Origin: an uncultured Actinomycetota bacterium
GTDB lineage: Bacteria > Actinomycetota > Humimicrobiia > Humimicrobiales > Humimicrobiaceae
Length of the DNA stretch: 64,000 nt
Direction: 5' to 3'
Assembly: GCA_964494385.1 (NCBI GenBank)
Contig: CAZBSE010000004.1
Coordinates: 12,475 to 76,474 of the forward strand
The notes below the pieces were generated by a model. The model ran no database searches. It saw only the letters and a program-made list of their open reading frames with translations, and was not told where the DNA came from. The position numbers and the translations under genes were made by a program. This document shows, piece by piece, positions 18,245 through 48,871 of this stretch; within the stretch, counting starts at the first letter, position 1; each line of letters starts with the position of its first letter.

Positions 18245-18667
18245 TTACAGATAATCACTTTCAATATCCTTCATCTTCCCTTTTATAATTTCTCTTAGAT
18301 TCACAATCCCGTTCCATGTGGAGACAACCTTATACTCTTTCATTTTCAGTTGGTCAAAATCATGTTCTCTGGCCGTATTAAATAAAATCCTTACCTTGCT
18401 CATTATATCCACAATCATATATCTTATCTTGTCGGATCTGTAATCAACTTTTAAATTTTCCCGGGATATATCCCTGGCAATAGCATCAAATTTCCCGCAA
18501 ATATTTTTATAAATAATATCAGCTTTTTTAGGATTGACGCTTTTCTGTTCCAGCATCCTGTTTACAATCTTGCTTAGGTCCCTCTTTATTATATTATCAT
18601 ATTGAAATAATGCATTTCCCAGCGGACTCTTGGGCCTTTCTACTTTCCTTTTTCTGAATAATCCCAT
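18245..18667 (-). CDS. Hypothetical basic 140-aa protein
   Basis: Uninterrupted ORF tightly packed between dprA and xerC (3-nt gap to xerC); no recognisable motif. Confidence 0.5.
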   Translation of the reverse strand: MGLFRKRKVERPKSPLGNALFQYDNIIKRDLSKIVNRMLEQKSVNPKKADIIYKNICGKFDAIARDISRENLKVDYRSDKIRYMIVDIMSKVRILFNTAREHDFDQLKMKEYKVVSTWNGIVNLREIIKGKMKDIESDYL

Positions 18668-18752
18668 TTTTTTTATACCTTACTGCTGAATTAAAATTAA
18701 AAATATATTATTATTCTATTATTCTATTAAAAATTTAATTCTATTACAAAAC

Positions 18753-19886: not shown

Positions 19887-19888
19887 AT

Positions 19889-21418
19889 TCAGGTAAGACT
19901 GTCCTGATTATAACCAACCCGGTATTGGACAGCTTCGATAATATGACTTTCTTTAATAATCCCACTTTCCTCCAGATCGGCTATGGTCCTGGATACCTTT
20001 AAAATACTGACCATCCCCCTGGCGGTTAATCTATATTTTTTTGATATCGTATATATTAGATCCCTTATTTTCTTGCTGCTTTTCAGCCACTGGTTAATAA
20101 CATTGTTTCCTATTTCGGAATTATAACTGATATCTTCATCTTCAAACCTTTCCTTTTGTATAATCATACACTTCTTTACGCGTTCTCTTATATTATCCGA
20201 ACCTTCACTGTCTTCTGTTTTTATAAAACTGCTTTCCGGCAATCTTGCCACCGTAACTCTCATATCTATTCTATCCATTATGGGGCCGCTCATTTTTTTC
20301 CAGAATTTTTTTACTTCCCTTAAGCTGCATATGCATTTTCTGCTGCCATCCCCAAAATAACCGCAATAACAGGGGTTTGTGGCCACTATCAGCATAAAAT
20401 TACAGGGAAAACTATAGGACATATTATTTCTGGTAATTATCACTTTCCTATTTTCCAGCGGCTGCCTTAGATCCTCAATAAGATTTGCGGGAAATTGTGA
20501 AAACTCATCCAGAAACAGCAATCCCTTGTGAGCCAGGCTAATCTCGCCTGGCTTAGGAACAACCCCTCCTCCGATCAGTCCCATCCTGCTTACCGTATGA
20601 TGAGGATTTCTAAATGGTCTTTGCCGTATTAAACAATTAATATATTTCTGATAAAGGCTGTAAATTTTAGTAACTTCAATACACTCTTTTAATTCAAGTT
20701 CCGGCATTATGGAAACCGCTCTCTGGGCCAGCATGGTTTTTCCGCTTCCGGGCGGGCCCATTAGTATTATGTTGTGCCTTCCGCTTGCTGCTATTTCCAG
20801 TGCCCTTTTTGCCTTAAACTGCCCTTTTACATCTTTGAAATCCAGATTGCTGCAGCTGCTCTGACCCCTGGTACCGGTATTTTTATAAATAAATCTTTCT
20901 ATCTGTGTGCCGCCGGAAAGAGCTTCCGCAACCTCAAGCAGATTTTTACATGCAATAATCTTAATTCCCGGTATAAAAGAAGCCTGATCCGCGATACTAT
21001 AAGGCACAAAAAAATATTTTCCACCCGAGGAGCTTACTCTTTCAGCCATTGAGATCAATCCTCTTACCGGATTTATGCTCCCGTCTAATGATAACTCACC
21101 GATGAAATAGGAGCCTTTAAACACACCGCTTTTTATCTGACCGCTGACTGCAAGAATTGAAATTGCTATCGGCAGGTCATAAAAGGATCCGTCTTTCTTT
21201 ATATCAGCCGGTGACAGGTTTACAATAATCTTTTTAATCGGAAAATCAAATCCGCTGTTAATAATGGCGGATCTTACCCTTTGCCTTGATTCGTTCACAG
21301 CCTTCCCCGGCAGCCCTACTATTATGAATTCAGGCATTCCCCTTGATATGTGAACCTCTACACATACATCCAGAGCATCGATGCCTATAAGGGTAAAGCT
21401 GTGCAGCTTAAAGAACAT
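19889..21418 (-). CDS. comM: YifB/ComM family Mg-chelatase-like AAA+ ATPase
   Basis: N-terminal Lon-protease-like ChlI domain (MFFKLHSFTLIGIDALDVCVEVHISRGMPEFIIVGLP), Walker A GPPGSGKTM and sensor motifs; 509 aa. Confidence 0.88.
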   Translation of the reverse strand: MFFKLHSFTLIGIDALDVCVEVHISRGMPEFIIVGLPGKAVNESRQRVRSAIINSGFDFPIKKIIVNLSPADIKKDGSFYDLPIAISILAVSGQIKSGVFKGSYFIGELSLDGSINPVRGLISMAERVSSSGGKYFFVPYSIADQASFIPGIKIIACKNLLEVAEALSGGTQIERFIYKNTGTRGQSSCSNLDFKDVKGQFKAKRALEIAASGRHNIILMGPPGSGKTMLAQRAVSIMPELELKECIEVTKIYSLYQKYINCLIRQRPFRNPHHTVSRMGLIGGGVVPKPGEISLAHKGLLFLDEFSQFPANLIEDLRQPLENRKVIITRNNMSYSFPCNFMLIVATNPCYCGYFGDGSRKCICSLREVKKFWKKMSGPIMDRIDMRVTVARLPESSFIKTEDSEGSDNIRERVKKCMIIQKERFEDEDISYNSEIGNNVINQWLKSSKKIRDLIYTISKKYRLTARGMVSILKVSRTIADLEESGIIKESHIIEAVQYRVGYNQDSLT

Positions 21419-21556: not shown

Positions 21557-23926
21557 TTAAAATTTAAAATCTTTTTTGGAAACTACTTTTATACAGGCAT
21601 CTACTACCGAAGAGTCGTATAGTTTGCCTTTGTTATTCTTGATCTCTTCAATTGCTGCATCCAACCCGAGAGCAGGTCGGTATGGCCTGTCAGATGACAT
21701 GGCCTCTACTACATCAGCTACAGTTAATATCTTTGATTCGAACAATATATCTTTACTTTTTAATCCCTGGGGATATCCTGAACCATTAAGTTTTTCGTGA
21801 TGCTGCAATATAATTTTTGAAATATTGAAAGGAAACTCTATTTTATCTATCATATCATAACTCATTTCGGGATGAGTCTTAATCATGTCATATTCGATAT
21901 CAGATAATCTTCCGGGTTTTACCAGAATTGAAGCCGGTATGTTTATTTTTCCTATATCATGGATCAATGCCGCTACTCTTATGGCCTCTACCCTTTCTTT
22001 CTCTAAATCCAGCTCTTTTGCAACAGCGACAGCTAGTTTTGATACCCTTTTCTGATGGCCCGAAGTATAAGGATCCTTTGCTTCAACTATGGCAGATAAT
22101 GTATTTATGGTGCCGTCAAGTATTCTCTTTAACTTTTTATAGCCTATCTTTAATTTATCTTCAGCTGATTTCTGTCCGGATATATTAACCCAGTTGCTTA
22201 TCAAATATTTTAATTTACCCTTGCTGAAAACAGGTTTACGGGAAAGCTGCACCCATATATCTTTCTTATCCTTGTTACAGAAAAGAATTTCCTTATTTTT
22301 TACATTTTTTAATAAAGATTCCTTATAATGCTTGCTGTAATTATCTACCTGATTTTTGGGCCACCAGGGGTACGGTACTTTTACGCCCAGAGCTTCACCT
22401 GGCTTTAAACCCACCAATTTTTCCATCGCAGGATTTACATATCTTACAGAAGTATCCGGATTTACCACTACTATAGGAGTAGGGGAATTATTCATCAGAC
22501 TGGAACTGAGTTCCTCACTTGTCTTTAATGATTCTTCCACTTGTTTTTGCCTGGTTAAATCATCATAGATAGTTACAATTTCTCCTGAAGGCAGCTTATA
22601 TACATAATTACGCCTCCAGCCGGATAATCTTTTATCTTTATAAAAACACAAGGGGTGTTTTTCAAACATCCCCGTTCTGTTGACTCTTTTAAAAACATCA
22701 AATAATCCAATATCTTTTATCCCCGGAAACACTTCCAAAACACTTTTCCCTATAATATTTTTTCTTTTGACCTTATCTATCCTTTCTGCAGCCTTATTAT
22801 AATCTCTGATAATAAAATCTTTACCGCCATCTACGGCTTCATATACTGCCACACCGTTTCTCATATGCTCAAAGAGTTCCTTAAACTTCTTCTCGCTTTC
22901 TCCTATTTTCCTAAATGCCTTATCCTGTAAGGTAATATCTTTAAAGATCCCCACGGCTCCGATAATTTTTCCATTTATATCTTTAATAGAATCGGCAGTC
23001 AGGGTACATCGGATTTTCATTCCGTCTATTCGTTTTTTCTCTAATCCAGATTTAATATATTTTTCCCCGGAAATAATTCTTTTTAATATGCATTTAGGAG
23101 TATTGCATTCGTGCCTTGGAAATACTTCAAAGCATTTTTTTTCTATAATCTCATTCTTGCCAAGACCTGCAAGATTATTAAACATTTTGTTTGATTTAGT
23201 TATAATAAAATCCTTATTAATAAATACTATCCCATCTGTTGATGTTTCAAACACTTGCTCTAATTCCTTATAAGAGAACCTTAATTTGTTTTCTATTTTC
23301 TTTCTGTCTATAACAATTGCCACCTGTTCCGAGAGAGCGCAAATTCTTTTAAGGTCAAATTCTTTAAATGGTTTCCTTGCGGAAATATCCAGCAGTCCTA
23401 AAACACTGCCATTTGAAATAAGCGGAACAGCTATAACTGATTTTATACCTAAAAGCCTGTAAAATTCAGGTAGGAGCCTTCTCGCTGCAGCTTTTAATAT
23501 TTTCTGTTTATCAGATATGGAATCAGTCAGCTCCCTTATAAGCCCTTTTATTTCAGAAACGTTATTTATAATCACCGGCTTCTTTCCTTTAAGTATTTTG
23601 TAATAACAGCCGGTTCCTGCTAACGGAATTCTTACCTCCGGTATCTTTACTTTTATCAGGCCCTCAATTACTCTTCTCTTATTTGTGGAGAGATTAATAT
23701 TCTGCATAATAAGATACTTTCCGCCATCATCTATAAGAAAAACAGTTGCACCGGAGCCTGAAAATATCTTTTTGGTTCTGGTGTTTATAAGTTTAATTAT
23801 TTTACTCAGGCTGTCCCCGCGGTTTACAGCCATGTTTATGGAATTTAGAAGCTTAAGGTCTTCCATACGGCATTTCATTCTGCCATCTTCTGACTTTTTT
23901 TCTACTGTTCTTTTTAGTCCTATCAT
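21557..23926 (-). CDS. Multi-sensor signal transduction protein: GAF + PAS repeats + C-terminal HD-GYP phosphohydrolase domain
   Basis: The C-terminus has HD...IHDIGKINIP...HHEKLNGSGYPQGL (HD-GYP motif); the N-terminal ~600 aa have GAF-like and PAS-like segments. Confidence 0.8.
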   Translation of the reverse strand: MIGLKRTVEKKSEDGRMKCRMEDLKLLNSINMAVNRGDSLSKIIKLINTRTKKIFSGSGATVFLIDDGGKYLIMQNINLSTNKRRVIEGLIKVKIPEVRIPLAGTGCYYKILKGKKPVIINNVSEIKGLIRELTDSISDKQKILKAAARRLLPEFYRLLGIKSVIAVPLISNGSVLGLLDISARKPFKEFDLKRICALSEQVAIVIDRKKIENKLRFSYKELEQVFETSTDGIVFINKDFIITKSNKMFNNLAGLGKNEIIEKKCFEVFPRHECNTPKCILKRIISGEKYIKSGLEKKRIDGMKIRCTLTADSIKDINGKIIGAVGIFKDITLQDKAFRKIGESEKKFKELFEHMRNGVAVYEAVDGGKDFIIRDYNKAAERIDKVKRKNIIGKSVLEVFPGIKDIGLFDVFKRVNRTGMFEKHPLCFYKDKRLSGWRRNYVYKLPSGEIVTIYDDLTRQKQVEESLKTSEELSSSLMNNSPTPIVVVNPDTSVRYVNPAMEKLVGLKPGEALGVKVPYPWWPKNQVDNYSKHYKESLLKNVKNKEILFCNKDKKDIWVQLSRKPVFSKGKLKYLISNWVNISGQKSAEDKLKIGYKKLKRILDGTINTLSAIVEAKDPYTSGHQKRVSKLAVAVAKELDLEKERVEAIRVAALIHDIGKINIPASILVKPGRLSDIEYDMIKTHPEMSYDMIDKIEFPFNISKIILQHHEKLNGSGYPQGLKSKDILFESKILTVADVVEAMSSDRPYRPALGLDAAIEEIKNNKGKLYDSSVVDACIKVVSKKDFKF

Positions 23927-28016: not shown

Positions 28017-29345
28017 TTAGAAATTTCCAAAAGGCATATTAAATTTACCCTTCTGGCCCGAAAACTGCTTCAGCATCTGCCTGGTTTTACTAAACTGCTT
28101 GAGCAATCTGTTTACTTCCGATACTGTACTGCCGCTTCCCTTTGCTATTCTCTTTTTCCTGCTGCCATTGATTATATGAGGCCTGCGTCTTTCTTCTACA
28201 GTCATGGAATTTATTATAGCCTCTATCCGATCCAGGTGAGAATCATCAAAATTTACTTTTTTAAGCATCTTGTTCTTGCCTGCCATGGGTATCATAGAGA
28301 ATATTTTATCCAGCGATCCTATCTTTTTTATACTTTTCAACTGTCCTACGAAATCTTCGAAATTTAGTTCATTTTTATATATTTTCTCTTCAATTCTTTT
28401 GGCCTCCTTTTTGCTTACCGCTTTTTCCGCCTTTTCGACTAAAGTCATCACATCGCCCTTACCCAATATTCTTGAGGCAATCCTATCGGGGTAAAATATA
28501 TCAAAATCTTCAACTTTTTCTCCGTTTGATACAAACTTTATAGGTTTCTTAACCACATAATAAACGGAAAGCGCGGCACCTCCTCTGGTATCACTGTCCA
28601 ACTTGGTTAAAATTATTCCATCACATTCAACTTTCTGATTAAAGCTGGAAGCAATATTTACAGCTTCCTGGCCGGTCATAGCATCAAGTACCAGGTATAT
28701 CTGATGCGGACTTACTTTTTTCTTTATATTTACGATTTCTTCCATCATATTCTCATCAATATGCAATCTTCCGGCAGTATCTATTATAACTACATCGCTT
28801 CCTGATTTTTTAAATAGTTCCAATCCTTTTACCGATATGGAAACCGGATCTAAATTTTCATTGGAATAAACATCCACTCCTATATTTTTTGCCATATCTT
28901 CCAGCTGGAGTACGGCTGCCGGCCTGTAAATATCTGCAGCTACTACGGACACTTTTTTCTGAAACCTTGCCTTTAAGAAATTGGCCAGTTTTATAACCGA
29001 TGAAGTTTTACCGGAGCCCTGGAGCCCGACTGTCATTATAACTGTGGGACCTTTGGGAACAAAACTTATGCTGCCGCTGCTAGAGCCCAGCATTCTTATA
29101 ATTTCTTCATTTACTATTTTTACTACCTGCTGATAGGGAGTAAGGCTTTCAAGTATTTTTTCGCCTATTGCCTTTGCCTTTACATTTTCTAAAAATTCCT
29201 TAACAACTTTAAAATTTACATCGGCTTCCAGCAGTGCCAGTTTTATTTCCCTTAATGCACTGTCCAGATCACCTGGATTTATTTTGCCTTTATTTCTTAT
29301 TTTAAAAAATAAATTTTCAAACTTCGCCGTCAGCTGATCAAACAT
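28017..29345 (-). CDS. ffh: Signal recognition particle protein Ffh
   Basis: N and G domains (GLQGSGKTSS, DTAGR, TKLD) and a Met-rich M domain. Confidence 0.95.
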   Translation of the reverse strand: MFDQLTAKFENLFFKIRNKGKINPGDLDSALREIKLALLEADVNFKVVKEFLENVKAKAIGEKILESLTPYQQVVKIVNEEIIRMLGSSSGSISFVPKGPTVIMTVGLQGSGKTSSVIKLANFLKARFQKKVSVVAADIYRPAAVLQLEDMAKNIGVDVYSNENLDPVSISVKGLELFKKSGSDVVIIDTAGRLHIDENMMEEIVNIKKKVSPHQIYLVLDAMTGQEAVNIASSFNQKVECDGIILTKLDSDTRGGAALSVYYVVKKPIKFVSNGEKVEDFDIFYPDRIASRILGKGDVMTLVEKAEKAVSKKEAKRIEEKIYKNELNFEDFVGQLKSIKKIGSLDKIFSMIPMAGKNKMLKKVNFDDSHLDRIEAIINSMTVEERRRPHIINGSRKKRIAKGSGSTVSEVNRLLKQFSKTRQMLKQFSGQKGKFNMPFGNF

Positions 29346-29376: not shown

Positions 29377-30258
29377 TCAGGAGAATATCAATTCGGTAAA
29401 CCTTACTGCATCAAATTGAAATATATCTTCCATTTTTTCTCCATTGGAAACCATTTTTATGGGAATTCCCAGATCATGCTTTATGGTAATTACTATCCCG
29501 CCCTTGGAAGCGCTGTCAACCTTGGTTAAGATAATGCCGGTTAAGTTTAACGCATTATTAAACAACTCCGCCTGATTTTTAGCATTTTGTCCGGTAGTGG
29601 AATCAACTACCAGTAGTATTTCATCGACTTCCCGGCCTATTCTCTTGTTAATTACTTTTTTTATTTTCTTCAGCTCTTCCATTAAATTATATGAAGTTTG
29701 CATCCTTCCGGCGGTATCGATTATGACCACGTCGATGTTCCTGGCTTTTGCCTTTTCTATGCTGTCGTAAACTACCGCTCCGGGATCTGATAATTTTTGG
29801 TGTGATACCATATCCAGCCCTAATTTTTCAGCATAATATTGTATTTGCTCCACTGCAGCCGACCTGTATGTATCTGCGGCCGATATTAGAACCTTTTTCC
29901 CTTCTTCTTTAAATAATTTGGCCAGCTTTGCAACTGCTGTGGTTTTACCCACTCCGTTTACCCCTACCACTAAAATCACCGCAGGACGAATGGCCGGTAT
30001 ATTTAACTTATGATCTTTGTTCCCATTAAGGATTTCTATAATCTGTTTCTTTAAAAGTGCCTTTACCTTTCCCGAATCATTTATATTCTCACGGTAAACA
30101 TAATCCTTCACTTCATCCAGCATCTTACCTGCAGTACTGATACTAATGTCACTGGTTACCAGCTGTTCTTCCAGCTCTTCCCAGAACTGACCCTTATTGT
30201 CTTTAAACTTGTTCCAGAAATAATTTAAATTTTTAATTAATCTCTGCATGTTTTTCAA
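29377..30258 (-). CDS. ftsY: SRP receptor FtsY (NG domain only, 293 aa)
   Basis: GVNGVGKTT, DTAGR and TKVD GTPase motifs; overlaps the smc 3' end by 26 nt. Confidence 0.92.
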   Translation of the reverse strand: MKNMQRLIKNLNYFWNKFKDNKGQFWEELEEQLVTSDISISTAGKMLDEVKDYVYRENINDSGKVKALLKKQIIEILNGNKDHKLNIPAIRPAVILVVGVNGVGKTTAVAKLAKLFKEEGKKVLISAADTYRSAAVEQIQYYAEKLGLDMVSHQKLSDPGAVVYDSIEKAKARNIDVVIIDTAGRMQTSYNLMEELKKIKKVINKRIGREVDEILLVVDSTTGQNAKNQAELFNNALNLTGIILTKVDSASKGGIVITIKHDLGIPIKMVSNGEKMEDIFQFDAVRFTELIFS

Positions 30259-32551
30259 TTTTTTCAGCTATTATCTTGGAGATCCCGCTAGATTGCATGG
30301 TGACGCCATAAATTGTATCTGCAATTTCCATGGTCCTCTTCTGATGGGTAATTATTATGATTTGCTGCTTTTCCGAAAATTTCTTTACAAGGGTTAAAAA
30401 CCTTCCGATATTTACATCATCAAGTGCGGCATCCACCTCATCAAATACATAAAAAGGCGATGGGTTTATGGAATAAATAGAGAAGAGAAAAGCCATGGAG
30501 ACTAAAGATTTTTCTCCTCCTGAAAGCAGCGAAATAGGAGCGAATTTATTATTGCCTATATCTACCTTTAGATCTACGCCTGTTTCATCCTTATCCGGAC
30601 CCCCGTTTCTTTCCAGCTGCATTTCGCCTTCGCCTAAAGGAAACAACACCTTGAAGTATCTTCTAAAGCACCTGTTAATTTCATCAAATCTCTCAAAAAA
30701 TAAATCGGCTATTTTTATATTCATATCTTTAATTAGTTCCTCCAGATTATTTTTACTTTCGCTTAGATCAAGTCTCTGATGGTTCAGGAAATCAAATCTC
30801 TTTTTTATCCTGCTGTATTCAATAGCCGCATTGGGATTAACGTTTCCATATTTTTTTATATCATTCTTGAGCCTTCTTACTACGGCCTCCGATTTTCTAA
30901 TGTCGGTACTGGGACTATAACTTTTTAGTGCATACTCCATTGACATGTTATAATTATCGGTGATTCCTTCCGCTATTATTTTTACTTTTTCTTTTACTTG
31001 CTCTTTTTTTAAATTTATTTTATACATCTTATTTTCAAGATTTAATCTGGACATATTCAACTGGTTGATTTTGCCATCCAGCTCACCTATTTTTTTCTGG
31101 CTTCCGGACAGTAAAATGCGTCTTTTTTCAAATTCAGGATAAAGTTTATCTTTGATATCCCTCCAGATAGATTTATAGTCATTTAAAAGTAAATAAATTT
31201 TTTTCGATCTCTTTAGATTAATGCTGCAGACTTCTTTTATGGCTTCTATCTTATCCAATCTTTGCCTGAGATTTCCGGTCCCTTCTCCGTTACTTTTATT
31301 TTCATGCGGCCCGTCTTCCTGCCCGTTCTTTTTTTCGTTCTGCTGTCTCTCAATCATCTTAAATAAACCTTTTAGTTCTTCTTCTATTATCTTCCCTTCG
31401 TTTTCGATAAAGCTGCCGTCAACATCGTCTTTTATTTTTCCCTTCAATTTTTCCAAAAAATTTAAAAATAATTTGTCCAGCTTATTAAGCTTATTTAAAA
31501 TATTCTCTAAAAAAGACTGCTTGATTTTATTATCGTATTGTTTTAACGGGCTGCGTAAACTTCCCGCGCTCTCAATACTGCCAAGCTCCAGTTCAAACAT
31601 ATTATATAATGTAGCAAAAACATTCCTCTTGCTCTCTGCCAGAGATATCATATGGCCAAGCTGATCACTTTTCGAATTGAACATATCGATTCTGCTTTTC
31701 CAGAGTTCATACTCGCTATTCTTTTTATCCATAAGCTTCAAAAGGCTGTTCTTTTCCTTCTCCAGTCTTAAAGCTTCTGCCTCTATATCCTCCAGCTTAT
31801 CCTTGCTTTTAGCATATGTGATATTTTCACTTTCCCACTCTTTATTTGAATTGTTAAGATAAGCAATAAAAAGAGAAATTTCCTCTTTTTTTAGATGATT
31901 GGAAACTTCAGCATATTCCCGGGCTCTATTTGCCTCAATCTCAAGCGGATCCATTGTCCTCTTTATTTCTTCGGTTAAATCATCTATTCTTTCGATATCA
32001 TTTTTTACCTTCTGAAGTTTCCCTATTGATTTATCTCTCCTATTTTTATGTTTTGATATGCCCAATACTTCATCTATTATAATTTTTCTCTCAAGTGACT
32101 TTAGCATCGCAATATCATTAATCTGCCCCTGATTTATTATAATATGCAAGCCTTTACCTATTCCGCTGTCTGCTGTCATTTCCTGAATATCGATTAACCT
32201 GCAGGGAGAAGAATTTATAAAATAATCACTGCCTCCTTTAGAAAATACCCTGCGGGTGAATTTCACATCCCTGAATTCTGTATTAAACAATCTATCGGAG
32301 TTATCAAACATAAGAGAAACTTCGGCAATTCCCATTTCCTCGTTTTTACTTTTAAAAATAACATCCCCCATAGAATTACCTCTCAGCGATTTCGGACTCT
32401 GCTCACCCAGGACCCAGGAAATAGCATCCGCTATATTGCTCTTACCGCTTCCATTTGGGCCCACAACCACACTGACTCCAGGCTCAAAGAATAACTGGCT
32501 TTTATTTTTAAAAGATTTAAAACCCCGCAGAGATATGTTTTTTAAGTACAA
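30233..32551 (-). CDS. smc: SMC-family chromosome segregation ATPase, short (772 aa), no recognisable hinge domain
   Basis: N-terminal head with Walker A (MYLKNISLRGFKSFK...VVVGPNGSGKSN); C-terminal head with signature LSGGEKSL and Walker B/D-loop FYVFDEVDAALD; the middle is coiled-coil only; canonical rnc-smc-ftsY position. Confidence 0.8.
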   Translation of the reverse strand: MYLKNISLRGFKSFKNKSQLFFEPGVSVVVGPNGSGKSNIADAISWVLGEQSPKSLRGNSMGDVIFKSKNEEMGIAEVSLMFDNSDRLFNTEFRDVKFTRRVFSKGGSDYFINSSPCRLIDIQEMTADSGIGKGLHIIINQGQINDIAMLKSLERKIIIDEVLGISKHKNRRDKSIGKLQKVKNDIERIDDLTEEIKRTMDPLEIEANRAREYAEVSNHLKKEEISLFIAYLNNSNKEWESENITYAKSKDKLEDIEAEALRLEKEKNSLLKLMDKKNSEYELWKSRIDMFNSKSDQLGHMISLAESKRNVFATLYNMFELELGSIESAGSLRSPLKQYDNKIKQSFLENILNKLNKLDKLFLNFLEKLKGKIKDDVDGSFIENEGKIIEEELKGLFKMIERQQNEKKNGQEDGPHENKSNGEGTGNLRQRLDKIEAIKEVCSINLKRSKKIYLLLNDYKSIWRDIKDKLYPEFEKRRILLSGSQKKIGELDGKINQLNMSRLNLENKMYKINLKKEQVKEKVKIIAEGITDNYNMSMEYALKSYSPSTDIRKSEAVVRRLKNDIKKYGNVNPNAAIEYSRIKKRFDFLNHQRLDLSESKNNLEELIKDMNIKIADLFFERFDEINRCFRRYFKVLFPLGEGEMQLERNGGPDKDETGVDLKVDIGNNKFAPISLLSGGEKSLVSMAFLFSIYSINPSPFYVFDEVDAALDDVNIGRFLTLVKKFSEKQQIIIITHQKRTMEIADTIYGVTMQSSGISKIIAEKIEKHAEIN

Positions 32552-32571: not shown

Positions 32572-33291
32572 TTATAATTTTAAGTTATATAATTTCTTTA
32601 AAGTATTTTTAGCAGCATTCTGTTCAGATTCCTTTTTGCTTTTTCCTTTACCTTTTCCTACTATTTTATCATCAAGCACCACTACCGAATAAAATGATTT
32701 ATCATGATCGGGACCTTCGGATTTAATCAATCTGTATTTTGCCAGTTTAGAGTAATCAGCCTGGACAATTTCCTGAAGATAGGTTTTGTAATCCATAATC
32801 TTTGTCGTGTCGATTAACTTCTCGATCCTCTTTTTATACCTATCCATCACCCAGTTAAAGGCAAAATCAATTCCCTTATCAGTATAAATGGCACCAATAA
32901 GCGCTTCCATGCTATCCGCTAAAATTGATGCTTTTTCTCTCCCATGACACAATTCCTCGTTCTCGCTTAAAAGTATCTGCTGGTCTATTTTTATTTCCCC
33001 GGCCAACTCTGCCAGCGTCTTTCTGCTTACCAGAACTGATCTTATTTTAGCCATCTTCCCTTCATTAAAATACTCATAATTTTTATAGATATATGAAGTA
33101 ATGATAAAGGAAAGTATGCTGTCGCCTAAGAACTCAAGCTGTTCGTTACCCCTCGATTTGATATTTATCTGGCGCGCAAGCGACCTGTGCGTTAAACTTT
33201 GTATATAAATTTTTACTCTATTTGTATTGACTCCTATAATTTTCAGCCATTTTTTTACTCTATCCTCGGGTAAAACTTCGTCATTCATCAA
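32572..33291 (-). CDS. rnc: Ribonuclease III
   Basis: RNase III signature ERLEFLGDS plus a C-terminal dsRBD. Confidence 0.93.
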   Translation of the reverse strand: MMNDEVLPEDRVKKWLKIIGVNTNRVKIYIQSLTHRSLARQINIKSRGNEQLEFLGDSILSFIITSYIYKNYEYFNEGKMAKIRSVLVSRKTLAELAGEIKIDQQILLSENEELCHGREKASILADSMEALIGAIYTDKGIDFAFNWVMDRYKKRIEKLIDTTKIMDYKTYLQEIVQADYSKLAKYRLIKSEGPDHDKSFYSVVVLDDKIVGKGKGKSKKESEQNAAKNTLKKLYNLKL

Positions 33292-34647: not shown

Positions 34648-35712
34648 TTATTTCTTTGAAATTTCCAGCAATCTTTTTATATCTACATACTCTTTTACTA
34701 CTTCTACTATTTTATCTATTTTTTTAATCTCGTGAAATCTTACATGTCCTATAATTTCTCCTACTCTTTCTACTGCCGTTAGGGTATCAAAATTAACCAG
34801 GATCATGGGAACGCCTAATTCTTCGGCCCTTCCCAGGACCACGGTGCTTGGCTGAAAATTTCCTGTAAGTATGAGACACTTGGTAGGAGTCTCCAGAGCG
34901 GCTAGCTGGACATCTGCCCTATCGCCGCCGGTTATAACTGCCTTGTTTGCTTTCCTCCTAAAAAATTTAAGAGCCTGCTCCTGTCCCATTGCTCCGACCA
35001 TGAATGCCTCTACCAGCTCATCTACCTTGTCTTCAGCGCAGATTATCTGTCCTCCTAAAAGCTCGGACATTTCTTTTACGCTTACGGAAGAAAGCATTTT
35101 ATCCGATACAATATATCCAAATACTTCTATTTCTTTTTTTACAATAAATGGTATTATCAGTTCCTTAAGATAATCCACCTGGCTTCTTGGAACCCAGTTT
35201 ATAATTATTCCTGCGAGTTTGCTGCCCAAAAAACTCTTTGAGTAAAGAATTTGATCCACGATTTCAGAGCCGTATTTGATTACCATAACCGCCTTGGCCC
35301 CCAGATGCTCACAAATCTTATCTGATGATACTCCCAGGAAATATCCGTCTTCTACGCTCTTGGCTCCCTCTAAAATTACAATATCCTTACCCTTCTGGAT
35401 TCTCTTGTAAGCTTTCTCGATTGATTCCATAAATTCCTTGGAGAAATTATTATCCTTTAACCCTTCTCTTACATATTGCTGGGTCAGTACGATGGGACAT
35501 ATATCTTCAAGCTCTTCTTTTACATCCAGTATATTGGAAATATATTGCGCATCTTCATCTGTGGTAATTCCTCCTACCCGGGTCGGCAGTGTTCCCACCG
35601 GTTTCATATATCCTACTTTGAGACCTTTTTCAACAAATAATTTCCCCACTCCCACACACATTGAACTTTTCCCTGAAAAGGGCTGATTTGAAATAAAAAA
35701 TAAAGGAATCAT
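34648..35712 (-). CDS. Stand-alone phosphotransacetylase N-terminal-domain-like protein (AAA_26/BioD-like + DRTGG domains)
   Basis: P-loop-like FFISNQPFSGKSSMCVGVG; C-terminal DRTGG-type motif (AVITGGDRADVQLAAL...LILTGNFQPS...VPMILVNFDTLTA), similar to the N-terminal half of long-form Pta; no acyltransferase domain. Confidence 0.7.
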   Translation of the reverse strand: MIPLFFISNQPFSGKSSMCVGVGKLFVEKGLKVGYMKPVGTLPTRVGGITTDEDAQYISNILDVKEELEDICPIVLTQQYVREGLKDNNFSKEFMESIEKAYKRIQKGKDIVILEGAKSVEDGYFLGVSSDKICEHLGAKAVMVIKYGSEIVDQILYSKSFLGSKLAGIIINWVPRSQVDYLKELIIPFIVKKEIEVFGYIVSDKMLSSVSVKEMSELLGGQIICAEDKVDELVEAFMVGAMGQEQALKFFRRKANKAVITGGDRADVQLAALETPTKCLILTGNFQPSTVVLGRAEELGVPMILVNFDTLTAVERVGEIIGHVRFHEIKKIDKIVEVVKEYVDIKRLLEISKK

Positions 35713-35713
35713 T

Positions 35714-37837
35714 TTAACCTCCTATTCTTATTCTTACGTCTCCAGCTATTGAGCCTTCGCCCTGTTTTTTTACAAACAAGGGATTTATATCCATTTCCAT
35801 AATTTCTGGAAAATCTATAACCAGCTGAGAAACTTTAAGTATGATATCAATTATGCTATCCACATCTGCAGGGTCTTCGCCCCTAACACCCTTAAGCAGC
35901 TTGTAAGATTTAATCTCTTCCACCATTTCCCGGGCAACCTCTCTGCTTATTGGAACAATTCTAAAAGAAACATCTTTAAGTGCCTCAACATATATCCCGC
36001 CAAGTCCGAACATGACCATTGGTCCGAATTGAGGGTCCTCGCTTATTCCGATAATGGTCTCTTTTTTTTCTTTAATAAATTTCTGAACCATAATTCCCCT
36101 GATATTGGCATCGGGCATATATTTTTTAACATTGATAAGAATCTGGTCGTAACTTTCTTCCAGTTCTTTTTCATTTTCTATTCCAATCTTAACGCCGCCA
36201 ACATCGGTTTTATGCAAAATATTAGGTGAAACAATTTTCAGTACCAGCGGATATCCGATTCTTGCCGCTACCTCTTTTGCTTTTCCTATATCACAGGCCA
36301 GTTCTGCTTCAGGTATCCTTATATTATATGCTTTAAGTATTTCTCTTGCTTCTATTTCTCCCAGTTCCAGTCTGCCTTCGGCTTTGCACCGGTTAAATAT
36401 TTCCTTAACCCTTCTATTGTCAACTTCGAACTGCTCAACAGGGAAATCTCTTCTGGATTTCCATTCCGTATAGTCCATCATTACTTTTAATGTTTTTATT
36501 GCTTCCTCGGGAATATCAAAATTGGGAATATTTTTTTTAGCTAAAAAATTTACCGCTTCTTTTACTTCTGAACCTCCCATAAAACTTGTTAGTATAGGAA
36601 TACTGCGGCTGCTTTTTTCTATTACTCCGGTAATTGCCCTGGCTGTTTTCAAACATTGTGTCATTGCCTGTGGCGTTAGCAGTACTACCACTGCATCAAC
36701 ATTGCTGTCCCTCAGCACTTCCTCCAGTGCCTTGCTGTACCTGTCTGCCAGAGCATCTCCTAAAATATCTACAGGATTATAAAAATTTGCTGCCTGGGGC
36801 AAAAATTTCTTTAGGTTTTCTATAGTTTCTATTTTTAGGCTGGTCAGCTCTATATCTCTCTTTTCACATTCATCTGTGGCCATAATGCCGGGACCGCCTG
36901 CATTTGTTATTATTGCAACTTTTTTACCTTTAGGCAATGGCTGATAGGAAAAAGCTATAGAGTAGTTAAAGAGATCCCTTATTGTATCCGCCCTTATTAT
37001 GCCTGTCTGTTTAAAGGCAGCTTCATAAGCTTTAGCCGAGCCGGCAAGCGTGCCTGTATGAGAAGACACCGCCCTGGCCCCTGCGTTTGTGTTTCCGGAT
37101 TTGATAACTATTATAGGTTTCTTTTTAGAAACCCTGGAACATATTTTGATAAATTCTTTTCCGGATTTTACACCTTCAAGATATAAAGTAATTACTTCGG
37201 TATTTTTCTCATTTTCCCAGCCTTCAATAAAATCATTTTCTGAAATATCAGCTTTATTACCCAGAGAAACAAATTTCGAAAACCCTATTTTATTAGTCTT
37301 GGCCCAATCCAGGATAGCTGTTCCCAGCGCACCTGATTGAGATATAAAACTTATTTTCCCCCTGGGGGGCATATTGGGAGAAAAAGAAGCATTTATGGGA
37401 CATCCCGTATTTATGATTCCAAGACAATTGGGACCCAGTATCCTTATTCCGTAATTCCTTGCTTTCTCAATTAACTGTCTCTCTATTCTGGCTCCTTCTA
37501 CACCTGTTTCCTTAAATCCTGCTGAAATTATAATGAACCATTTTATATTTTTCTTTGAACATTGTTCCAGAGCCTCTAACACCATCGTGCGGGGGATAAC
37601 TATTATAGCCAGCTCGATATCGTGCGGTACATCCAGTACCGATGGATAACATTTAATTCCAAATATTTCATCTGTTTTAGGGTTTACTGGAAATAATTTG
37701 CCTTTATATCCGGAATTTATTAGATTGGATAGAATCTCGTGGCCTACTTTTTTTTCTTGTCTGGAAGCCCCAATTACTGCTGTGGACTTCGGGCAAAAAA
37801 AATTCTGCAAATTCAAATTACAAACCTCCAATTCCAT
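35714..37837 (-). CDS. ADP-forming (NDP-forming) acetyl-CoA synthetase, fused alpha/beta domains (CoA-binding + CoA-ligase + ATP-grasp)
   Basis: N-terminal CoA-binding Rossmann segment (STAVIGASRQEKKVGHEIL...), a succinyl-CoA-synthetase-like flavodoxin domain, and a C-terminal ATP-grasp (VLKIVSPNILHKTDVGGVKIG...); 707 aa. Confidence 0.75.
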   Translation of the reverse strand: MELEVCNLNLQNFFCPKSTAVIGASRQEKKVGHEILSNLINSGYKGKLFPVNPKTDEIFGIKCYPSVLDVPHDIELAIIVIPRTMVLEALEQCSKKNIKWFIIISAGFKETGVEGARIERQLIEKARNYGIRILGPNCLGIINTGCPINASFSPNMPPRGKISFISQSGALGTAILDWAKTNKIGFSKFVSLGNKADISENDFIEGWENEKNTEVITLYLEGVKSGKEFIKICSRVSKKKPIIVIKSGNTNAGARAVSSHTGTLAGSAKAYEAAFKQTGIIRADTIRDLFNYSIAFSYQPLPKGKKVAIITNAGGPGIMATDECEKRDIELTSLKIETIENLKKFLPQAANFYNPVDILGDALADRYSKALEEVLRDSNVDAVVVLLTPQAMTQCLKTARAITGVIEKSSRSIPILTSFMGGSEVKEAVNFLAKKNIPNFDIPEEAIKTLKVMMDYTEWKSRRDFPVEQFEVDNRRVKEIFNRCKAEGRLELGEIEAREILKAYNIRIPEAELACDIGKAKEVAARIGYPLVLKIVSPNILHKTDVGGVKIGIENEKELEESYDQILINVKKYMPDANIRGIMVQKFIKEKKETIIGISEDPQFGPMVMFGLGGIYVEALKDVSFRIVPISREVAREMVEEIKSYKLLKGVRGEDPADVDSIIDIILKVSQLVIDFPEIMEMDINPLFVKKQGEGSIAGDVRIRIGG

Positions 37838-38193: not shown

Positions 38194-38667
38194 TTATTTC
38201 TCACCTGTATCCAATGCGCCTCTAAATTGTTCCCTTCCTTTTTCGATTGCAGTCAGCAATTTATGCAGTACAGCTTCCATATTTGCCAGTTTCTCGTCTG
38301 CATAATCCTCGGCTTCAAGTCTGATGGTCCTTGCCCTGGCTTCTGCGGTGGTCATTATCTCCTCCGATTTCCTGGCAGCATCTTTTAATATCTCGGTTTC
38401 ACTGACAAGAATTTCTGCCTTTTCCTTAGCTTCTTTAATTACCCTTTCAGAATATCTTTTGGCCTCTTCTATCATATTCTCTCTTTCTTTTACAATCCAC
38501 CTTGACTGCTTGAACTCTTCCGGCAGCACACTCCTCAATTCATCCAGTAAATCGTATATCTCGCTTTCGCTTACCATTATATTGGATGAAAATGGAATCC
38601 TCCTGCTCTTTTCAAGAAATTCTTCAATTCTGTCTACGATTTCAATTACATTCATGCCGCTCTCCAT
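38194..38667 (-). CDS. Hypothetical acidic coiled-coil protein (157 aa)
   Basis: Uninterrupted ORF in the slot upstream of rpmF where YceD/DUF177 usually sits; no Cys pairs, so it is not DUF177; predicted mostly helical. Confidence 0.55.
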   Translation of the reverse strand: MESGMNVIEIVDRIEEFLEKSRRIPFSSNIMVSESEIYDLLDELRSVLPEEFKQSRWIVKERENMIEEAKRYSERVIKEAKEKAEILVSETEILKDAARKSEEIMTTAEARARTIRLEAEDYADEKLANMEAVLHKLLTAIEKGREQFRGALDTGEK

Positions 38668-39191: not shown

Positions 39192-39759
39192 TTAACTTTG
39201 ACAAGGTGACAGATAAATTACTTTTTTATCTCCGAAATGCGATTGTTTGACTATATTAAAATTCTTTATTTCACCGCTTACATCTTTTTTAAAAAAGTAT
39301 TCGTATATCAGCAAAGCATCTTTTTTGATGATATCTTTACCTGCCAGAGCATCAAATATCTTTTTCATTATATCACTTTCAATTTTGTATGGTGGGTCCA
39401 AAAAGACCAGGTCCCATTTCAAACCCTTATAAGATTTTAAGAATTTTAAAACATCACTTTTGATTATCTTATACTTTTTATCTGTATTTTCAAAATACCT
39501 GGTATTATACCTTATAAGATTAATTGATTGGAAACTATTATCCACAAAGTATACTAGATTGCAATTTCTGCTTGATGATTCCACTCCCAGTGAACCCGTT
39601 CCCGAAAATAGATCCAGAACATTTGACCCTGCTAATCTGCCGCTGATAACATTAAAAATACTCTCTTTAACGCTGTCCAGAGTAGGCCTGATTTTATAAT
39701 CTGAAGGAGGCTTTAGCTTTCTGCCTTTAAACTCACCGGAAATAATTCTAATGATCCAT
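39192..39759 (-). CDS. rsmD: 16S rRNA (guanine966-N2)-methyltransferase RsmD; 5' end carries an apparent +1 frameshift immediately after the ATG
   Basis: Upstream of the track ORF (a GTG start at MESSS, mid-domain) the frame stays open and encodes IIRIISGEFKGRKLKPPSDYKIRPTLDSVKESIFNVISGRLAGSNVLDLFSGTGSLGVESSS...DLVFLDPPY (RsmD motifs I and IV). It runs back to an in-frame TGA with no ATG/GTG/TTG. An ATG at 39757-39759 is out of frame by one nt (atgGatcatt); removing one G would give MIIRIISGE.... Confidence 0.7.
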
Positions 39760-39772
39760 CACCGTCCGGTAA

Positions 39773-47625: not shown

Positions 47626-47639
47626 TTAAAACATGAAGA

Positions 47640-48845: not shown

Positions 48846-48871
48846 TATTCCTCCTATATAAATACTATAAG

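What the first reader, a model, noticed from the sequence alone, without database searches (positions are those of the whole stretch)
30233..32551. Complete but hinge-less, short SMC (772 aa) in the canonical rnc-smc-ftsY position
A single uninterrupted ORF carries an SMC N-terminal Walker A head and a C-terminal signature-motif/Walker B head. It is ~400 aa shorter than typical bacterial SMC (~1150-1200 aa), and the middle shows only coiled-coil-like sequence, with no Gly-rich hinge dimerisation domain. Synteny says it is the SMC orthologue, not RecN/SbcC. A hinge-less SMC would have to dimerise differently (coiled-coil apex, like Rad50/MukB-type arrangements), or the gene is a deletion derivative.
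Basis: partly seen in the sequence, partly recalled or inferred. Interest (0 to 1): 0.55.

Follow-up and report, generated by a model that had tools for sequence, protein, structure and literature searches.

The report
Natural hinge-less, half-length bacterial SMC
The chromosome-organising SMC protein of a whole class of uncultured Actinobacteria (Humimicrobiia) has lost its hinge dimerisation domain and the outer half of both arms, yet evolves under purifying selection at the normal smc locus. That makes it a natural test of whether the hinge is needed for SMC function.

Summary
Window 30233-32551 (-) is one intact 772-aa ORF lying between rnc and ftsY. It has all SMC ATPase motifs and scores above NCBI's curated cut-off for bacterial Smc (TIGR02168, 610 vs 567 bits).

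No hinge is detectable by Pfam (E<=1), by a purpose-built hinge HMM (0 of 122 family members), or by profile-profile comparison (0.1% probability; positive control 99.3%). About 490 canonical positions (outer arms plus hinge) are replaced by about 85 lineage-specific residues. AlphaFold2 predicts these as a helical hairpin flanked by two flexible loops.

It is not a misassembly. More than 120 independent protein clusters and 15 complete GTDB species-representative genes (46-85% identity) keep a 736-788 aa form in plsX-rnc-smc-ftsY-ffh synteny. Sister classes have a full-length, hinge-bearing SMC at the same locus. dN/dS is 0.06 in the heads and 0.35 in the apex.

A 2025 paper already described hinge-less SMCs in marine Actinobacteria. 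Here, other hinge-less SMCs are each closest to hinge-bearing ones, which suggests repeated loss, and several carry a Cys pair at the tip.

How this protein dimerises is inferred, not shown. ScpA/ScpB, or a second SMC elsewhere in the genome, could not be tested.

The parts
30233..32551 (-). smc gene, 772 codons plus stop: hinge-less, half-arm SMC orthologue
   Evidence: ORF. SMC_N E 9e-70. TIGR02168 610 bits, above the 567 cut-off. Best PDB sequence hits are Smc head constructs 5xg3 and 3zgx, E about 1e-100.
32057..32551 (-). N-terminal half of the ATPase head (residues 1-165), including Walker A GPNGSGKSN (res 31-39, nt 32435-32461), R57 and Q-loop Q141
   Evidence: These columns are invariant in the family alignments. 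dN/dS for the heads is 0.06.
31565..32056 (-). N-terminal coiled-coil strand (residues 166-329). It is homologous to canonical Smc arm positions up to about 344. The head-proximal 'neck' (166-240) is as conserved as the head.
   Evidence: AF2 predicts one helix 166-327/329 with pLDDT 82-93.
31583..31642 (-). Lineage-specific conserved motif at the distal end of the N-arm (residues 304-323, L-x-E-S-K-K-N-V-F-S-T-L-Y-N-M-F-D-L). It has a polar stripe (S307, N310, T314, N317) and a hydrophobic stripe (F312, L315, F319). It is a candidate inter-subunit contact.
   Evidence: Class-wide conservation is 0.81 for residues 311-320; S307 and T314 are invariant in 15 sequences at 46-85% identity. The canonical Smc consensus shows no motif at this position. 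The functional role is inferred.
31532..31564 (-). Flexible loop 1 (residues about 330-340) separating the arm from the tip hairpin
   Evidence: AF2 pLDDT about 30 and non-helical in both models. Low conservation and indels.
31328..31531 (-). Tip hairpin that stands where the hinge should be: helix A 341-372, tight turn 373-375 (K-D-D), helix B 376-408. It includes the semi-conserved tip motif Y/F381-I-E-N-E-G386.
   Evidence: AF2 predicts the helices with pLDDT 72-79. hhalign against the hinge profile gives 0.1%. No PDB sequence hit at E<=10. Helix A has 42% strongly hydrophobic positions against 31% in the arms. Apex dN/dS is 0.35.
31280..31327 (-). Flexible, K/E/G/S-rich loop 2 (residues about 409-424) returning to the C-arm
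   Evidence: AF2 pLDDT about 31. Composition is K 28%, E 14%. P0112 has a 24-aa deletion here.
30752..31279 (-). C-terminal coiled-coil strand (residues 425-600), homologous to canonical positions 835 onward. It contains the distal motifs C442-x-x-N445-L-x-R448 and L470-Y-P-E-F474 (nt 31118-31240) and the 'joint' break with the D532-N-Y-N-x-S-x-x-Y-x-x-K-S-Y-x-P547 motif (nt 30827-30958).
   Evidence: AF2 helices 425-534, 538-544, 551-568 and 575-636. HMM mapping. Motif conservation. The top Foldseek hit is the Pyrococcus Smc head with coiled coil and joint, 5xei.
30236..30751 (-). C-terminal half of the ATPase head (residues 601-772): signature LSGGEK (676-681, nt 30509-30526), Walker B FYVFDE (700-705, nt 30437-30454) and H-loop H736 (nt 30344-30346)
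   Evidence: Invariant columns. PDB hits to Smc C-terminal head halves.
32572..33291 (-). rnc (RNase III), upstream neighbour that defines the canonical locus
   Evidence: ORF. The homologue in L001/L002 has RNase III Pfam domains. It is syntenic in all 18 Humimicrobiia loci.
29377..30258 (-). ftsY, downstream neighbour; its listed TTG start overlaps the end of smc, followed by ffh (28017-29345)
   Evidence: ORFs. Synteny.

Best explanation
This is the genuine, functional Smc orthologue of the actinobacterial class Candidatus Humimicrobiia. An ancestral in-frame loss removed the hinge and the distal half of both coiled-coil strands (canonical positions about 345-834). About 85 new residues now join the two half-arms, and they are predicted to form a short helical hairpin held on two flexible loops.

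The protein keeps a complete ABC-type SMC ATPase head, the neck and the joint. It therefore most likely still works as an ATP-driven Smc-kleisin DNA-organising machine, with arms of roughly 24 nm plus a tip of about 5 nm, compared with about 49 nm in B. subtilis.

Because there is no hinge and no zinc hook, the two subunits are most likely held together at the far end by helix-helix packing. The proposed contacts are the tip hairpin together with the lineage-specific conserved distal-arm motifs (SKKNVFSTLYNMF, CxxNLxR, LYPEF), in a four-helix-bundle-like arrangement.

Shown: identity, orthology, absence of the hinge, lineage-wide conservation, purifying selection and helical topology.
Inferred: partnership with ScpAB, the mode of apex dimerisation, and the cellular function.
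For: Identity and orthology:
- TIGR02168 scores above its curated cut-off and all ATPase motifs are invariant.
- Best solved relatives are Smc heads, E about 1e-100.
- plsX-rnc-smc-ftsY-ffh synteny holds in all 18 Humimicrobiia species loci. The same rnc-smc-ftsY slot holds a full-length, hinge-bearing SMC in Aquicultor, Geothermocultor, Geothermincolia and Anoxymicrobiaceae.

Hinge absence: with positive controls.

Extent of the loss: canonical HMM positions 345-834 are missing.

Real and selected:
- At least 120 clusters are 767-777 aa, apart from one 748-aa variant (P0112).
- 15 complete species-representative genes are 736-788 aa.
- dN/dS is 0.06 in the heads, 0.17-0.19 in the arms and neck, and 0.35 in the apex.

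Topology: two AF2 runs agree on helices 166-329, 341-372, 376-408 and 425-534, with low-confidence loops at 330-340 and 409-424.

Candidate contact surface:
- A class-wide conservation island sits at 304-323, with smaller ones at 442-448 and 470-474. None has a canonical counterpart.
- Tip helix A is richer in hydrophobic positions than the arms, 0.42 against 0.31.

Precedent that the hinge can be replaced:
- B. subtilis Smc works with a Rad50 zinc hook in place of the hinge, and with shortened arms of particular lengths. Natural prokaryotic Smc arm lengths include a minor mode at 163 aa (PMC5344682).
- The canonical-homologous arm here is about 165-175 aa.
- A natural 822-aa mini-SMC (P0158) has the same arm breakpoints and still carries a hinge.
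Against: - No dimer model could be computed.
- The tip (residues about 325-435) is poorly conserved in sequence and length across the class; L013 lacks about 45 aa. That is unusual for a specific dimer interface.
- Only helix A shows raised hydrophobic density; helix B does not (0.28).
- ScpA and ScpB were not found among the window ORFs scanned with Pfam (most, not all, of the window's ORFs). The rest of the genome could not be searched, so neither a kleisin partner nor the absence of a second SMC, MksB or MukB is established.
- The genome scan used family-specific peptide patterns and says nothing about paralogues.
- The AF2 heads were modelled badly (pLDDT 25-40), so no structural statement about the heads rests on the models.
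Confidence: 0.6

Rival explanations
1. Open-ended SMC. The two subunits are not joined at the tip at all. They associate only through ATP-dependent head engagement and a kleisin bridge. The complex would then act as a DNA clamp or bridge without a closed arm/hinge ('S') compartment, and the hairpin would simply cap the coiled coil.
For: - The tip is variable in sequence and length and has indels.
- Apex dN/dS is the highest in the gene, 0.35.
- There is no Cys pair or other recognisable dimerisation device.
- Apex net charge is near zero.
Against: - The apex is still under purifying selection, with dN/dS below 1.
- A strongly conserved, lineage-specific motif set sits at the distal arm ends where nothing is conserved in canonical Smc. 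This needs an explanation beyond capping.
- Apex length is nearly fixed within the family: 96-97 residues in 117 of 121 sequences.
- In B. subtilis the nature of the dimerisation domain is uncritical, but a dimerisation domain was kept in every functional construct (PMC5344682).
Confidence: 0.25
2. Subfunctionalised or regulatory remnant. Chromosome condensation in these bacteria is done by another SMC-type complex encoded elsewhere (a second Smc, MksBEF or a Wadjet-like complex). This short protein would be a derived accessory or repair ATPase, or a regulator that occupies ScpA or other SMC heads, comparable to C. elegans SMCL-1.
For: - The Humimicrobiia head is a long branch, at most 47-48% identical to any SMC head outside the class, whereas other lineages share 55-78%. 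This is compatible with a functional shift.
- A second SMC could not be excluded with the tools available.
- SMCL-1 is a precedent for a hinge-less SMC-like regulator (PMC5373644; only its title and abstract were seen).
Against: - The protein occupies exactly the ancestral smc slot, which holds a full-length SMC in sister classes.
- It still passes the curated Smc equivalog threshold.
- Head dN/dS is 0.06 and all catalytic motifs are invariant.
- Neck and joint are retained.
- For the marine hinge-less clade, the authors found no co-occurring regular SMC (PMC12153180).
Confidence: 0.1
3. Artefact: a collapsed assembly, or a recently decaying pseudogene.
For: Only the unusual length itself supports this.
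Against: - The same architecture and length appear in at least 120 clusters from JGI, ENA, NCBI and Logan assemblies.
- 15 complete GTDB species-representative genes have it down to 46% identity, one of them on a 982-kb contig.
- The reading frame is intact, and purifying selection acts throughout the gene.
Confidence: 0.01
4. It is really a RecN-, SbcC/Rad50- or defence-type (LmuB, JetC, mad3) SMC-like ATPase that happens to sit next to ftsY.
For: - These families also lack a canonical hinge and have shorter coiled coils.
- Weak profile hits exist: Rad50 59 bits, recN 57 bits; PADLOC mad3 210 bits, LmuB 68 bits.
Against: - All of these scores are far below the Smc score of 610 bits, and below the curated cut-offs where one exists: recN 408, Rad50 700. 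PADLOC models carry no cut-off.
- There is no CxxC hook.
- No Mre11/SbcD or defence partner genes are adjacent; the neighbours are housekeeping genes.
- Orthology by synteny with full-length Smc.
Confidence: 0.02

Closest known systems
Bacterial Smc of the Smc-ScpAB complex (B. subtilis type; NCBIfam TIGR02168)
   Same: ATPase head with all motifs, neck, joint, antiparallel coiled-coil arm and the rnc-smc-ftsY locus. It scores above the curated family cut-off.
   Different: It has no hinge domain. Canonical positions about 345-834 are missing, so the arm is about half as long. A lineage-specific helical tip and distal-arm motifs stand in their place. Partnership with ScpAB was not verified.
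'Hinge-less' SMC clade of marine Actinobacteria (Environ Microbiome 2025;20:65, PMC12153180)
   Same: SMC heads and coiled coil without a hinge, no CxxC hook, actinobacterial, and described as the only SMC in the genomes screened.
   Different: That clade comes from ocean-water metagenomes (OM-RGC). This one belongs to class Humimicrobiia, known only from metagenome-assembled genomes. I could not compare sequences directly. Hinge-less SMCs found here are each closest to a hinge-bearing SMC, not to the window protein (42-48% head identity), so separate origins are likely. That paper gives no locus, arm-length or motif analysis.
Engineered Mini-Smc and Smc(Zh) zinc-hook chimera of B. subtilis (Burmann et al. 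2017, PMC5344682)
   Same: Shortened arms and a hinge replaced by an unrelated dimerisation device can still support Smc function. Permitted arm lengths are periodic, and a natural minor mode lies at about 163 aa. The canonical-homologous arm here is about 165-175 aa.
   Different: Those are laboratory constructs that always keep a defined dimerisation domain. The present protein is natural and has neither a hinge nor a zinc hook.
Rad50/SbcC
   Same: An SMC-like ABC head with an antiparallel coiled coil that ends in a simple hairpin rather than a globular hinge.
   Different: No CxxC zinc hook (0 of 122). Rad50 profile scores are far below the cut-off. No Mre11/SbcD neighbour. The heads are clearly Smc-type.
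RecN
   Same: A short SMC-like protein that, from my own knowledge, dimerises through its coiled-coil tip without a hinge. It is a plausible mechanistic analogue for a purely helical tip interface.
   Different: The recN equivalog scores 57 bits against a cut-off of 408. The locus and head type also differ.
Natural short-arm SMC with hinge (P0158, 822 aa, metagenomic)
   Same: Arm breakpoints are almost identical (canonical positions 333/844 against 344/835 here).
   Different: P0158 keeps a Pfam-detectable hinge; the window protein does not.

Membership tests
Bacterial Smc (TIGR02168 SMC_prok_B equivalog) | Whole-protein score above the curated cut-off | tested here: met
   610.4 bits against a cut-off of 567.35, in two stretches.
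Bacterial Smc (TIGR02168 SMC_prok_B equivalog) | Split ABC ATPase head: Walker A, Q-loop, signature LSGG, Walker B with catalytic Glu, H-loop | tested here: met
   G31-N39, Q141, L676-K681, D704-E705 and H736 are invariant in the 16- and 58-sequence alignments.
Bacterial Smc (TIGR02168 SMC_prok_B equivalog) | Long antiparallel coiled-coil arm with a head-proximal joint | tested here: met
   AF2 helices 166-329 and 425-636, with a break at 535-574. The arm is only about half the canonical length.
Bacterial Smc (TIGR02168 SMC_prok_B equivalog) | Central hinge dimerisation domain (Pfam PF06470) | tested here: not met
   No Pfam hit at E<=1. 0 of 122 family members hit a custom hinge HMM. hhalign gives 0.1% against a 99.3% control.
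Bacterial Smc (TIGR02168 SMC_prok_B equivalog) | Orthologous genomic position (rnc-smc-ftsY) | tested here: met
   Sister classes carry a full-length SMC in the same slot.
Bacterial Smc (TIGR02168 SMC_prok_B equivalog) | Kleisin ScpA and kite ScpB encoded in the genome and binding the neck and cap | not testable with these tools
   Neither was found among the window ORFs scanned with Pfam. Whole genomes could not be searched. High neck conservation is only consistent with kleisin binding.
Rad50/SbcC | CxxC zinc hook at the coiled-coil apex | tested here: not met
   0 of 122 family members have CxxC between the heads. The single conserved Cys (C442) is not at the tip.
Rad50/SbcC | Family profile score above cut-off, and an adjacent Mre11/SbcD nuclease gene | tested here: not met
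   Rad50 models score 38-59 bits against cut-offs of 700-1000. The neighbours are rnc and ftsY.
RecN | recN equivalog score above cut-off | tested here: not met
   TIGR00634 scores 56.7 bits against a cut-off of 407.85.
Hinge-less actinobacterial SMC (PMC12153180) | SMC heads and coiled coil, no hinge, no CxxC, actinobacterial host | tested here: met
   Host names (Ca. Hydromicrobium, Humimicrobiaceae) are; the lineage is.
Hinge-less actinobacterial SMC (PMC12153180) | Membership of the same monophyletic (marine OM-RGC) clade | not tested
Other hinge-less representatives share only 42-48% head identity with the window protein, and each is closer to a hinge-bearing SMC.
Defence-system SMC-like ATPases (PADLOC: LmuB, JetC, mad3, etc.) | A specific profile match together with defence-gene neighbours | tested here: not met
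   The best PADLOC hit is mad3 (a match that spans both head halves, like Pfam SMC_N) at 210 bits; LmuB scores 68 bits. Both are far below the Smc score. The neighbourhood is housekeeping.

The most novel reading that the evidence does not exclude
The Humimicrobiia Smc is the only condensin of these bacteria. It entraps or extrudes DNA with half-length arms and no hinge, closing its far end through a new, purely helical tip module (distal-arm SKKNVFSTLYNMF / CxxNLxR / LYPEF motifs plus a hairpin on flexible loops). In addition, hinge loss has occurred repeatedly in Actinomycetota with at least two different replacement designs: a helical tip here, and a Cys-pair, hook-like tip in other lineages. 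If so, the hinge is dispensable for natural SMC function, and models that require hinge-DNA contacts would not apply universally.
Probability: 0.3. Interest if true: 0.8.

Novelty: new variant of a known kind. Interest (0 to 1): 0.6.

Why it matters
The hinge is treated as a defining and essential part of SMC proteins. It is the dimerisation site, a DNA-binding site and a proposed DNA gate, and several loop-extrusion models have the hinge handing DNA to the heads.

Engineering in B. subtilis showed that the hinge can be swapped and the arms shortened (PMC5344682). Natural examples have hardly been described; I found one computational report from 2025.

This case provides:
- a whole bacterial class whose smc gene, at the ancestral locus and under strong purifying selection, lacks the hinge and half of each arm;
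- sister classes with the full-length form for comparison;
- other lineages that appear to have lost the hinge independently, some with a Cys-pair tip.

This makes the question 'what is the hinge for?' directly testable with natural proteins. It also offers a compact 772-aa SMC that should be easier to handle for structural and single-molecule work.

The finding is not categorically new: the heads, neck, joint and locus are ordinary Smc, and the hinge-less state has a published precedent.

Tried and rejected
- Tandem-dimer AlphaFold2. I built two copies of residues 296-472 joined by a Gly-Ser linker, with paired alignment rows, to test tip dimerisation.
- Two full-length AF2 runs (16 and 58 sequences). 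Both gave confident arms but very poor heads (pLDDT 25-40). Foldseek against the PDB therefore only recovered generic SMC and coiled-coil entries with TM 0.1-0.3. I draw no head-structure conclusions from these models.
- Tip region against PDB sequences: no hit at E<=10.
- DNA-binding basic tip hypothesis: apex net charge is about 0, ranging from -4 to +4 across the class. Not supported.
- Four-helix-bundle signature from hydrophobic density: only helix A is enriched (0.42 against 0.31), and helix B is not (0.28). This is weak support only.
- Zinc hook: excluded for this family.
- ScpA/ScpB. Pfam scans of 43 window proteins found none; a few larger ORFs, e.g. 4236-13628 and 18245-21418, were not scanned. 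The question is unresolved.
- Second SMC. The genome scan used family-specific peptides (WVLGEQSP, EEM[GA]IAEV), so it cannot detect a canonical paralogue. Unresolved.
- Literature searches for 'hinge-less' and 'hingeless' SMC found one relevant natural bacterial case (PMC12153180) plus engineered constructs. Papers on Humimicrobiia were listed but not opened; none has SMC as its topic.
- The NJ tree of head domains is only a rough guide. I rely instead on pairwise head identities for the claim of independent losses. Some hinge-less representatives are singletons and could be artefacts.

Full report
**1. What is at the coordinates**

One search lists one uninterrupted ORF at 30233..32551 on the minus strand: 772 aa, TTG start, beginning MYLKNISLRGFKSF. 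It lies 20 nt downstream of rnc (32572-33291). Its end overlaps the listed TTG start of ftsY (29377-30258). Then come ffh, rpsP, rimM, trmD and rplS. plsX lies upstream of rnc.

- Pfam gives SMC_N over residues 2-758 (E 9e-70) and no SMC_hinge hit even at E<=1.
- NCBIfam gives the bacterial Smc equivalog TIGR02168 at 610.4 bits, above its curated cut-off of 567.35. The match comes in two stretches, and the second aligns residues 391-764 to model positions 812-1180.
- recN (57 bits against a cut-off of 408) and Rad50 (59 against 700) are far below threshold.
- The best solved relatives by sequence are Smc head constructs 5xg3 and 3zgx, E about 1e-100.

**2. Is the hinge really absent?**

I built a hinge HMM from 60 full-length relatives. 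It hit essentially every full-length SMC in the set and none of the 122 family members, using hmmsearch --max at E<=10.

Profile-profile comparison of the family's central region against the hinge profile gave 0.1% probability. The middle of a short hinge-bearing SMC (P0158) gave 99.3%.

Pfam finds PF06470 in four controls: P0158, P0125, P0138 and the Ca. Aquicultor secundus SMC.

Mapping onto a full-length canonical HMM shows residues 1-341 aligned to positions 1-344, and residues 427-770 aligned to positions 835-1176. About 490 canonical positions (the hinge plus the distal half of both arm strands) are therefore replaced by about 85 residues with no counterpart. That segment has no PDB sequence match at E<=10.

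**3. Artefact?**

No.
- The search for homologous proteins returned at least 120 clusters (clustered at 90% identity) at 63-100% identity. They come from JGI, ENA, NCBI and Logan assemblies and are almost all exactly 772 aa. They are named Ca. Hydromicrobium, Humimicrobiaceae or Actinomycetota.
- A scan of GTDB species representatives found 15 complete genes of 736-788 aa at 46-85% identity, all without a hinge. One lies on a 982-kb contig.
- All 18 Humimicrobiia loci keep plsX-rnc-smc, and every locus that extends far enough also has ftsY and ffh.
- In the sister lineages Ca. Aquicultor, Geothermocultor, Geothermincolia and Anoxymicrobiaceae, the same rnc-smc-ftsY slot holds an SMC of 1139-1176 aa with a hinge.
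- dN/dS between the window gene and its 85%-identical relative (dS about 0.4-0.6) is 0.06 for the heads, 0.19 for the neck, 0.17 for the arms and 0.35 for the apex.

The short gene is therefore the positional orthologue of smc. It is fixed in the class Ca. Humimicrobiia (lineage) and is maintained by selection over its whole length.

**4. Anatomy**

All catalytic motifs are invariant in the family alignments: Walker A 31-39, R57, Q141, LSGGEK 676-681, D704-E705 and H736.

Two AlphaFold2 runs agree on the arm topology:
- helix 166-329
- a low-confidence loop at 330-340
- helix 341-372
- a three-residue turn at 373-375
- helix 376-408
- a low-confidence K/E-rich loop at 409-424
- helix 425-534
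- a break at 535-574, which corresponds to the Smc 'joint' and carries the invariant DNYNxSxxYxxKSYxP motif
- helix 575-636

The heads were modelled poorly (pLDDT 25-40), probably because the alignments are shallow in diversity. I therefore use the models only for the arms. Foldseek's best PDB match is the Pyrococcus Smc head with coiled coil and joint, 5xei.

The canonical-homologous arm is about 165-175 residues, or roughly 24 nm. The tip hairpin adds about 5 nm. The B. subtilis arm is 49 nm (PMC5526789 abstract). A natural minor mode of prokaryotic Smc arm length at about 163 aa was noted by Burmann et al. (PMC5344682). A natural 822-aa SMC (P0158) has nearly the same arm breakpoints (333/844) but keeps its hinge.

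**5. What replaces the hinge?**

Across the class, the tip (about 325-435) varies in sequence and length; L013 lacks about 45 residues. Within the Hydromicrobium-like family its length is almost fixed, at 96-97 residues in 117 of 121 sequences.

Three features stand out.

(a) An island of class-wide conservation sits at the distal end of the N-arm (304-323, SKKNVFSTLYNMFDL). S307 and T314 are invariant, and F312, N317 and M318 are at 0.93. Smaller islands lie on the facing C-arm: C442-x-x-N445-L-x-R448 and L470-Y-P-E-F474. The canonical Smc consensus shows only generic coiled-coil sequence at these positions. The N-arm motif presents both a hydrophobic stripe and a polar stripe (S307, N310, T314, N317). 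That is more than a two-stranded coiled coil needs.

(b) Tip helix A has 42% strongly hydrophobic positions against 31% in the arms. Helix B does not share this (0.28).

(c) A short acidic motif (Y/F-I-E-N-E-G, 381-386) just after the turn is 0.83-0.98 conserved in the family and 0.47-0.67 conserved class-wide.

There is no CxxC or Cys pair in 122 members. The apex carries no consistent net charge.

My best inference is that the distal-arm motifs, probably together with the loop-tethered hairpin, form a helical-bundle contact between the two subunits.

**6. How it most likely works**

The head, neck and joint are retained and strongly constrained, and the gene sits in the ancestral operon. I therefore consider it most likely (about 0.6) that this is still the cell's Smc. 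It would bind and hydrolyse ATP, engage heads, bind a kleisin at the conserved neck and organise DNA, with arms half as long and a non-hinge tip contact.

This is mechanistically plausible. [quoted passage not shown]

Rivals:
- An open-ended SMC joined only at the heads and kleisin (0.25).
- A subfunctionalised remnant alongside another condensin encoded elsewhere (0.1).
- A RecN-, Rad50- or defence-type ATPase (0.02).
- An artefact (0.01).

The second rival cannot be excluded here, because ScpA, ScpB and other SMC-type genes could not be searched genome-wide. None was found among the window ORFs scanned with Pfam. PADLOC gives only matches far below the Smc score (mad3 210 bits, LmuB 68 bits), in a housekeeping neighbourhood.

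**7. Comparison with what is known**

A 2025 paper (Environ Microbiome 20:65, PMC12153180) reported an abundant monophyletic clade of 'hinge-less' SMCs in marine Actinobacteria. It was based on AlphaFold models, found no CxxC and found no co-occurring regular SMC. The hinge-less state as such is therefore already published. I found no other report of natural bacterial hinge-less SMCs and nothing on SMC in Humimicrobiia.

In the exhaustive representative search, the window family is isolated. One other 50%-identity cluster (P0121, 781 aa) scores 907 bits, and the next hit scores 448 bits.

Among the next 148 representatives, 13 more lack a hinge:
- Seven between 763 and 918 aa: P0197 763, P0157 838, P0124 849, P0135 858, P0216 884, P0122 916 and P0147 918.
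- Four between 930 and 945 aa: P0131, P0123, P0136 and P0134.
- P0188 at 1003 aa and P0140 at 1082 aa.
These assignments rest.

P0122 and P0135 also sit in rnc-smc-ftsY.

Each of these is closer in head sequence to a hinge-bearing SMC than to the window protein. P0135 is 78% identical to P0138 of Anoxymicrobiaceae, P0188 76% to P0176, P0157 70% to P0251 and P0122 69.5% to P0126, against 42-48% to the window protein. This points to several independent hinge losses.

The caveats are that the tree is only neighbour-joining and that some representatives are singletons.

The Humimicrobiia head itself is a long branch, at most 47-48% identical to anything outside the class.

**8. Verdict**

The object is an ordinary Smc in its heads, neck, joint and locus. 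It fails one defining family feature, the hinge, so I file it as a new variant of a known kind: a hinge-less, half-arm Smc that is distinct from, and probably independent of, the published marine clade.

Interest is moderate to high (0.6). The variant is surprising to a specialist and makes the role of the hinge testable with natural proteins. It has a precedent, and its mechanism is inferred only.

Noticed in passing
Not in the window: proteins P0123, P0134, P0188, P0131, P0147 and P0122: Several other hinge-less SMC representatives carry a pair of cysteines exactly at the centre of the protein. Cx6C occurs in P0123 (C461/C468), P0134 (C461/C468) and P0188 (C477/C484). P0131 has CxxxC and P0147 has CxxxxC. 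In P0122 two Cys flank the central turn. This looks like a zinc-hook-like tip, a natural counterpart of the engineered Smc(Zh). The window family has none.
   Followed up: partly
Not in the window: P0158 (822 aa); also P0166, P0209 and P0251 (960-987 aa): These are natural 'mini-SMCs' that keep a Pfam-detectable hinge but have strongly shortened arms. P0158 has almost the same arm breakpoints as the window protein. One cluster is named Ca. Subteraquimicrobiales. SMC architecture appears unusually plastic among the window protein's closest SMC relatives; the named ones are uncultured Actinomycetota.
   Followed up: partly
window 1-64000: Every ORF with a Pfam or homology assignment lies on the minus strand (the plus-strand ORFs overlap them). 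GC skew is negative in every 2-kb bin, from -0.13 to -0.34. The window is one long co-directional block of housekeeping genes, from pyrR at the right end to ribF at the left.
   Followed up: no
window 46000-62000: G+C rises to 0.41-0.48 over the metK / pyr / carAB region, against 0.33-0.38 elsewhere, then falls to 0.31 in the last 2 kb. This may reflect highly conserved biosynthetic genes or a different origin. It was not examined.
   Followed up: no
window 61521-61636 (-): Rfam PyrR binding site (RF00515, 56 bits against a gathering score of 54) directly upstream of a 178-aa phosphoribosyltransferase-domain ORF that I take to be pyrR (60971-61507) and the pyr operon. No tRNA genes were found in the whole window.
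   Followed up: yes
window 63593-64000 (-) and 62833-63450 (-): The C-terminal third of a bacterial serpin (Pfam Serpin, E 4e-40). Its ORF runs off the window end. A nucleotidyltransferase-domain protein lies next to it. Both sit in the low-GC last 2 kb, outside the housekeeping block.
   Followed up: partly
window 39192-39760 (-): The rsmD-like ORF is listed as 130 aa from a GTG. Its reading frame stays open upstream and encodes the expected N-terminus (IIRIISGEFKGRKL...) without any ATG, GTG or TTG. It probably starts at an ATH codon, or the start has been lost.
   Followed up: partly
window 38194-38667 (-): A 157-aa ORF between coaD and the ADP-forming acetyl-CoA synthetase has no Pfam hit. 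A 169-aa gene in the same position in L002 (homology not checked) has only a 'faint' DivIVA hit.
   Followed up: no
window 21557-23926 (-): A 789-aa GAF-PAS-PAS-HD (HD_5, HD-GYP-like) signalling protein is embedded in the housekeeping block.
   Followed up: no
window 34648-37837 (-): An ADP-forming acetyl-CoA synthetase (707 aa) and a 354-aa ORF whose counterpart in L002/L003 is a DRTGG/AAA_26 protein sit directly upstream of plsX-rnc-smc. The same pair precedes rnc in the locus of the independent hinge-less SMC P0135.
   Followed up: no
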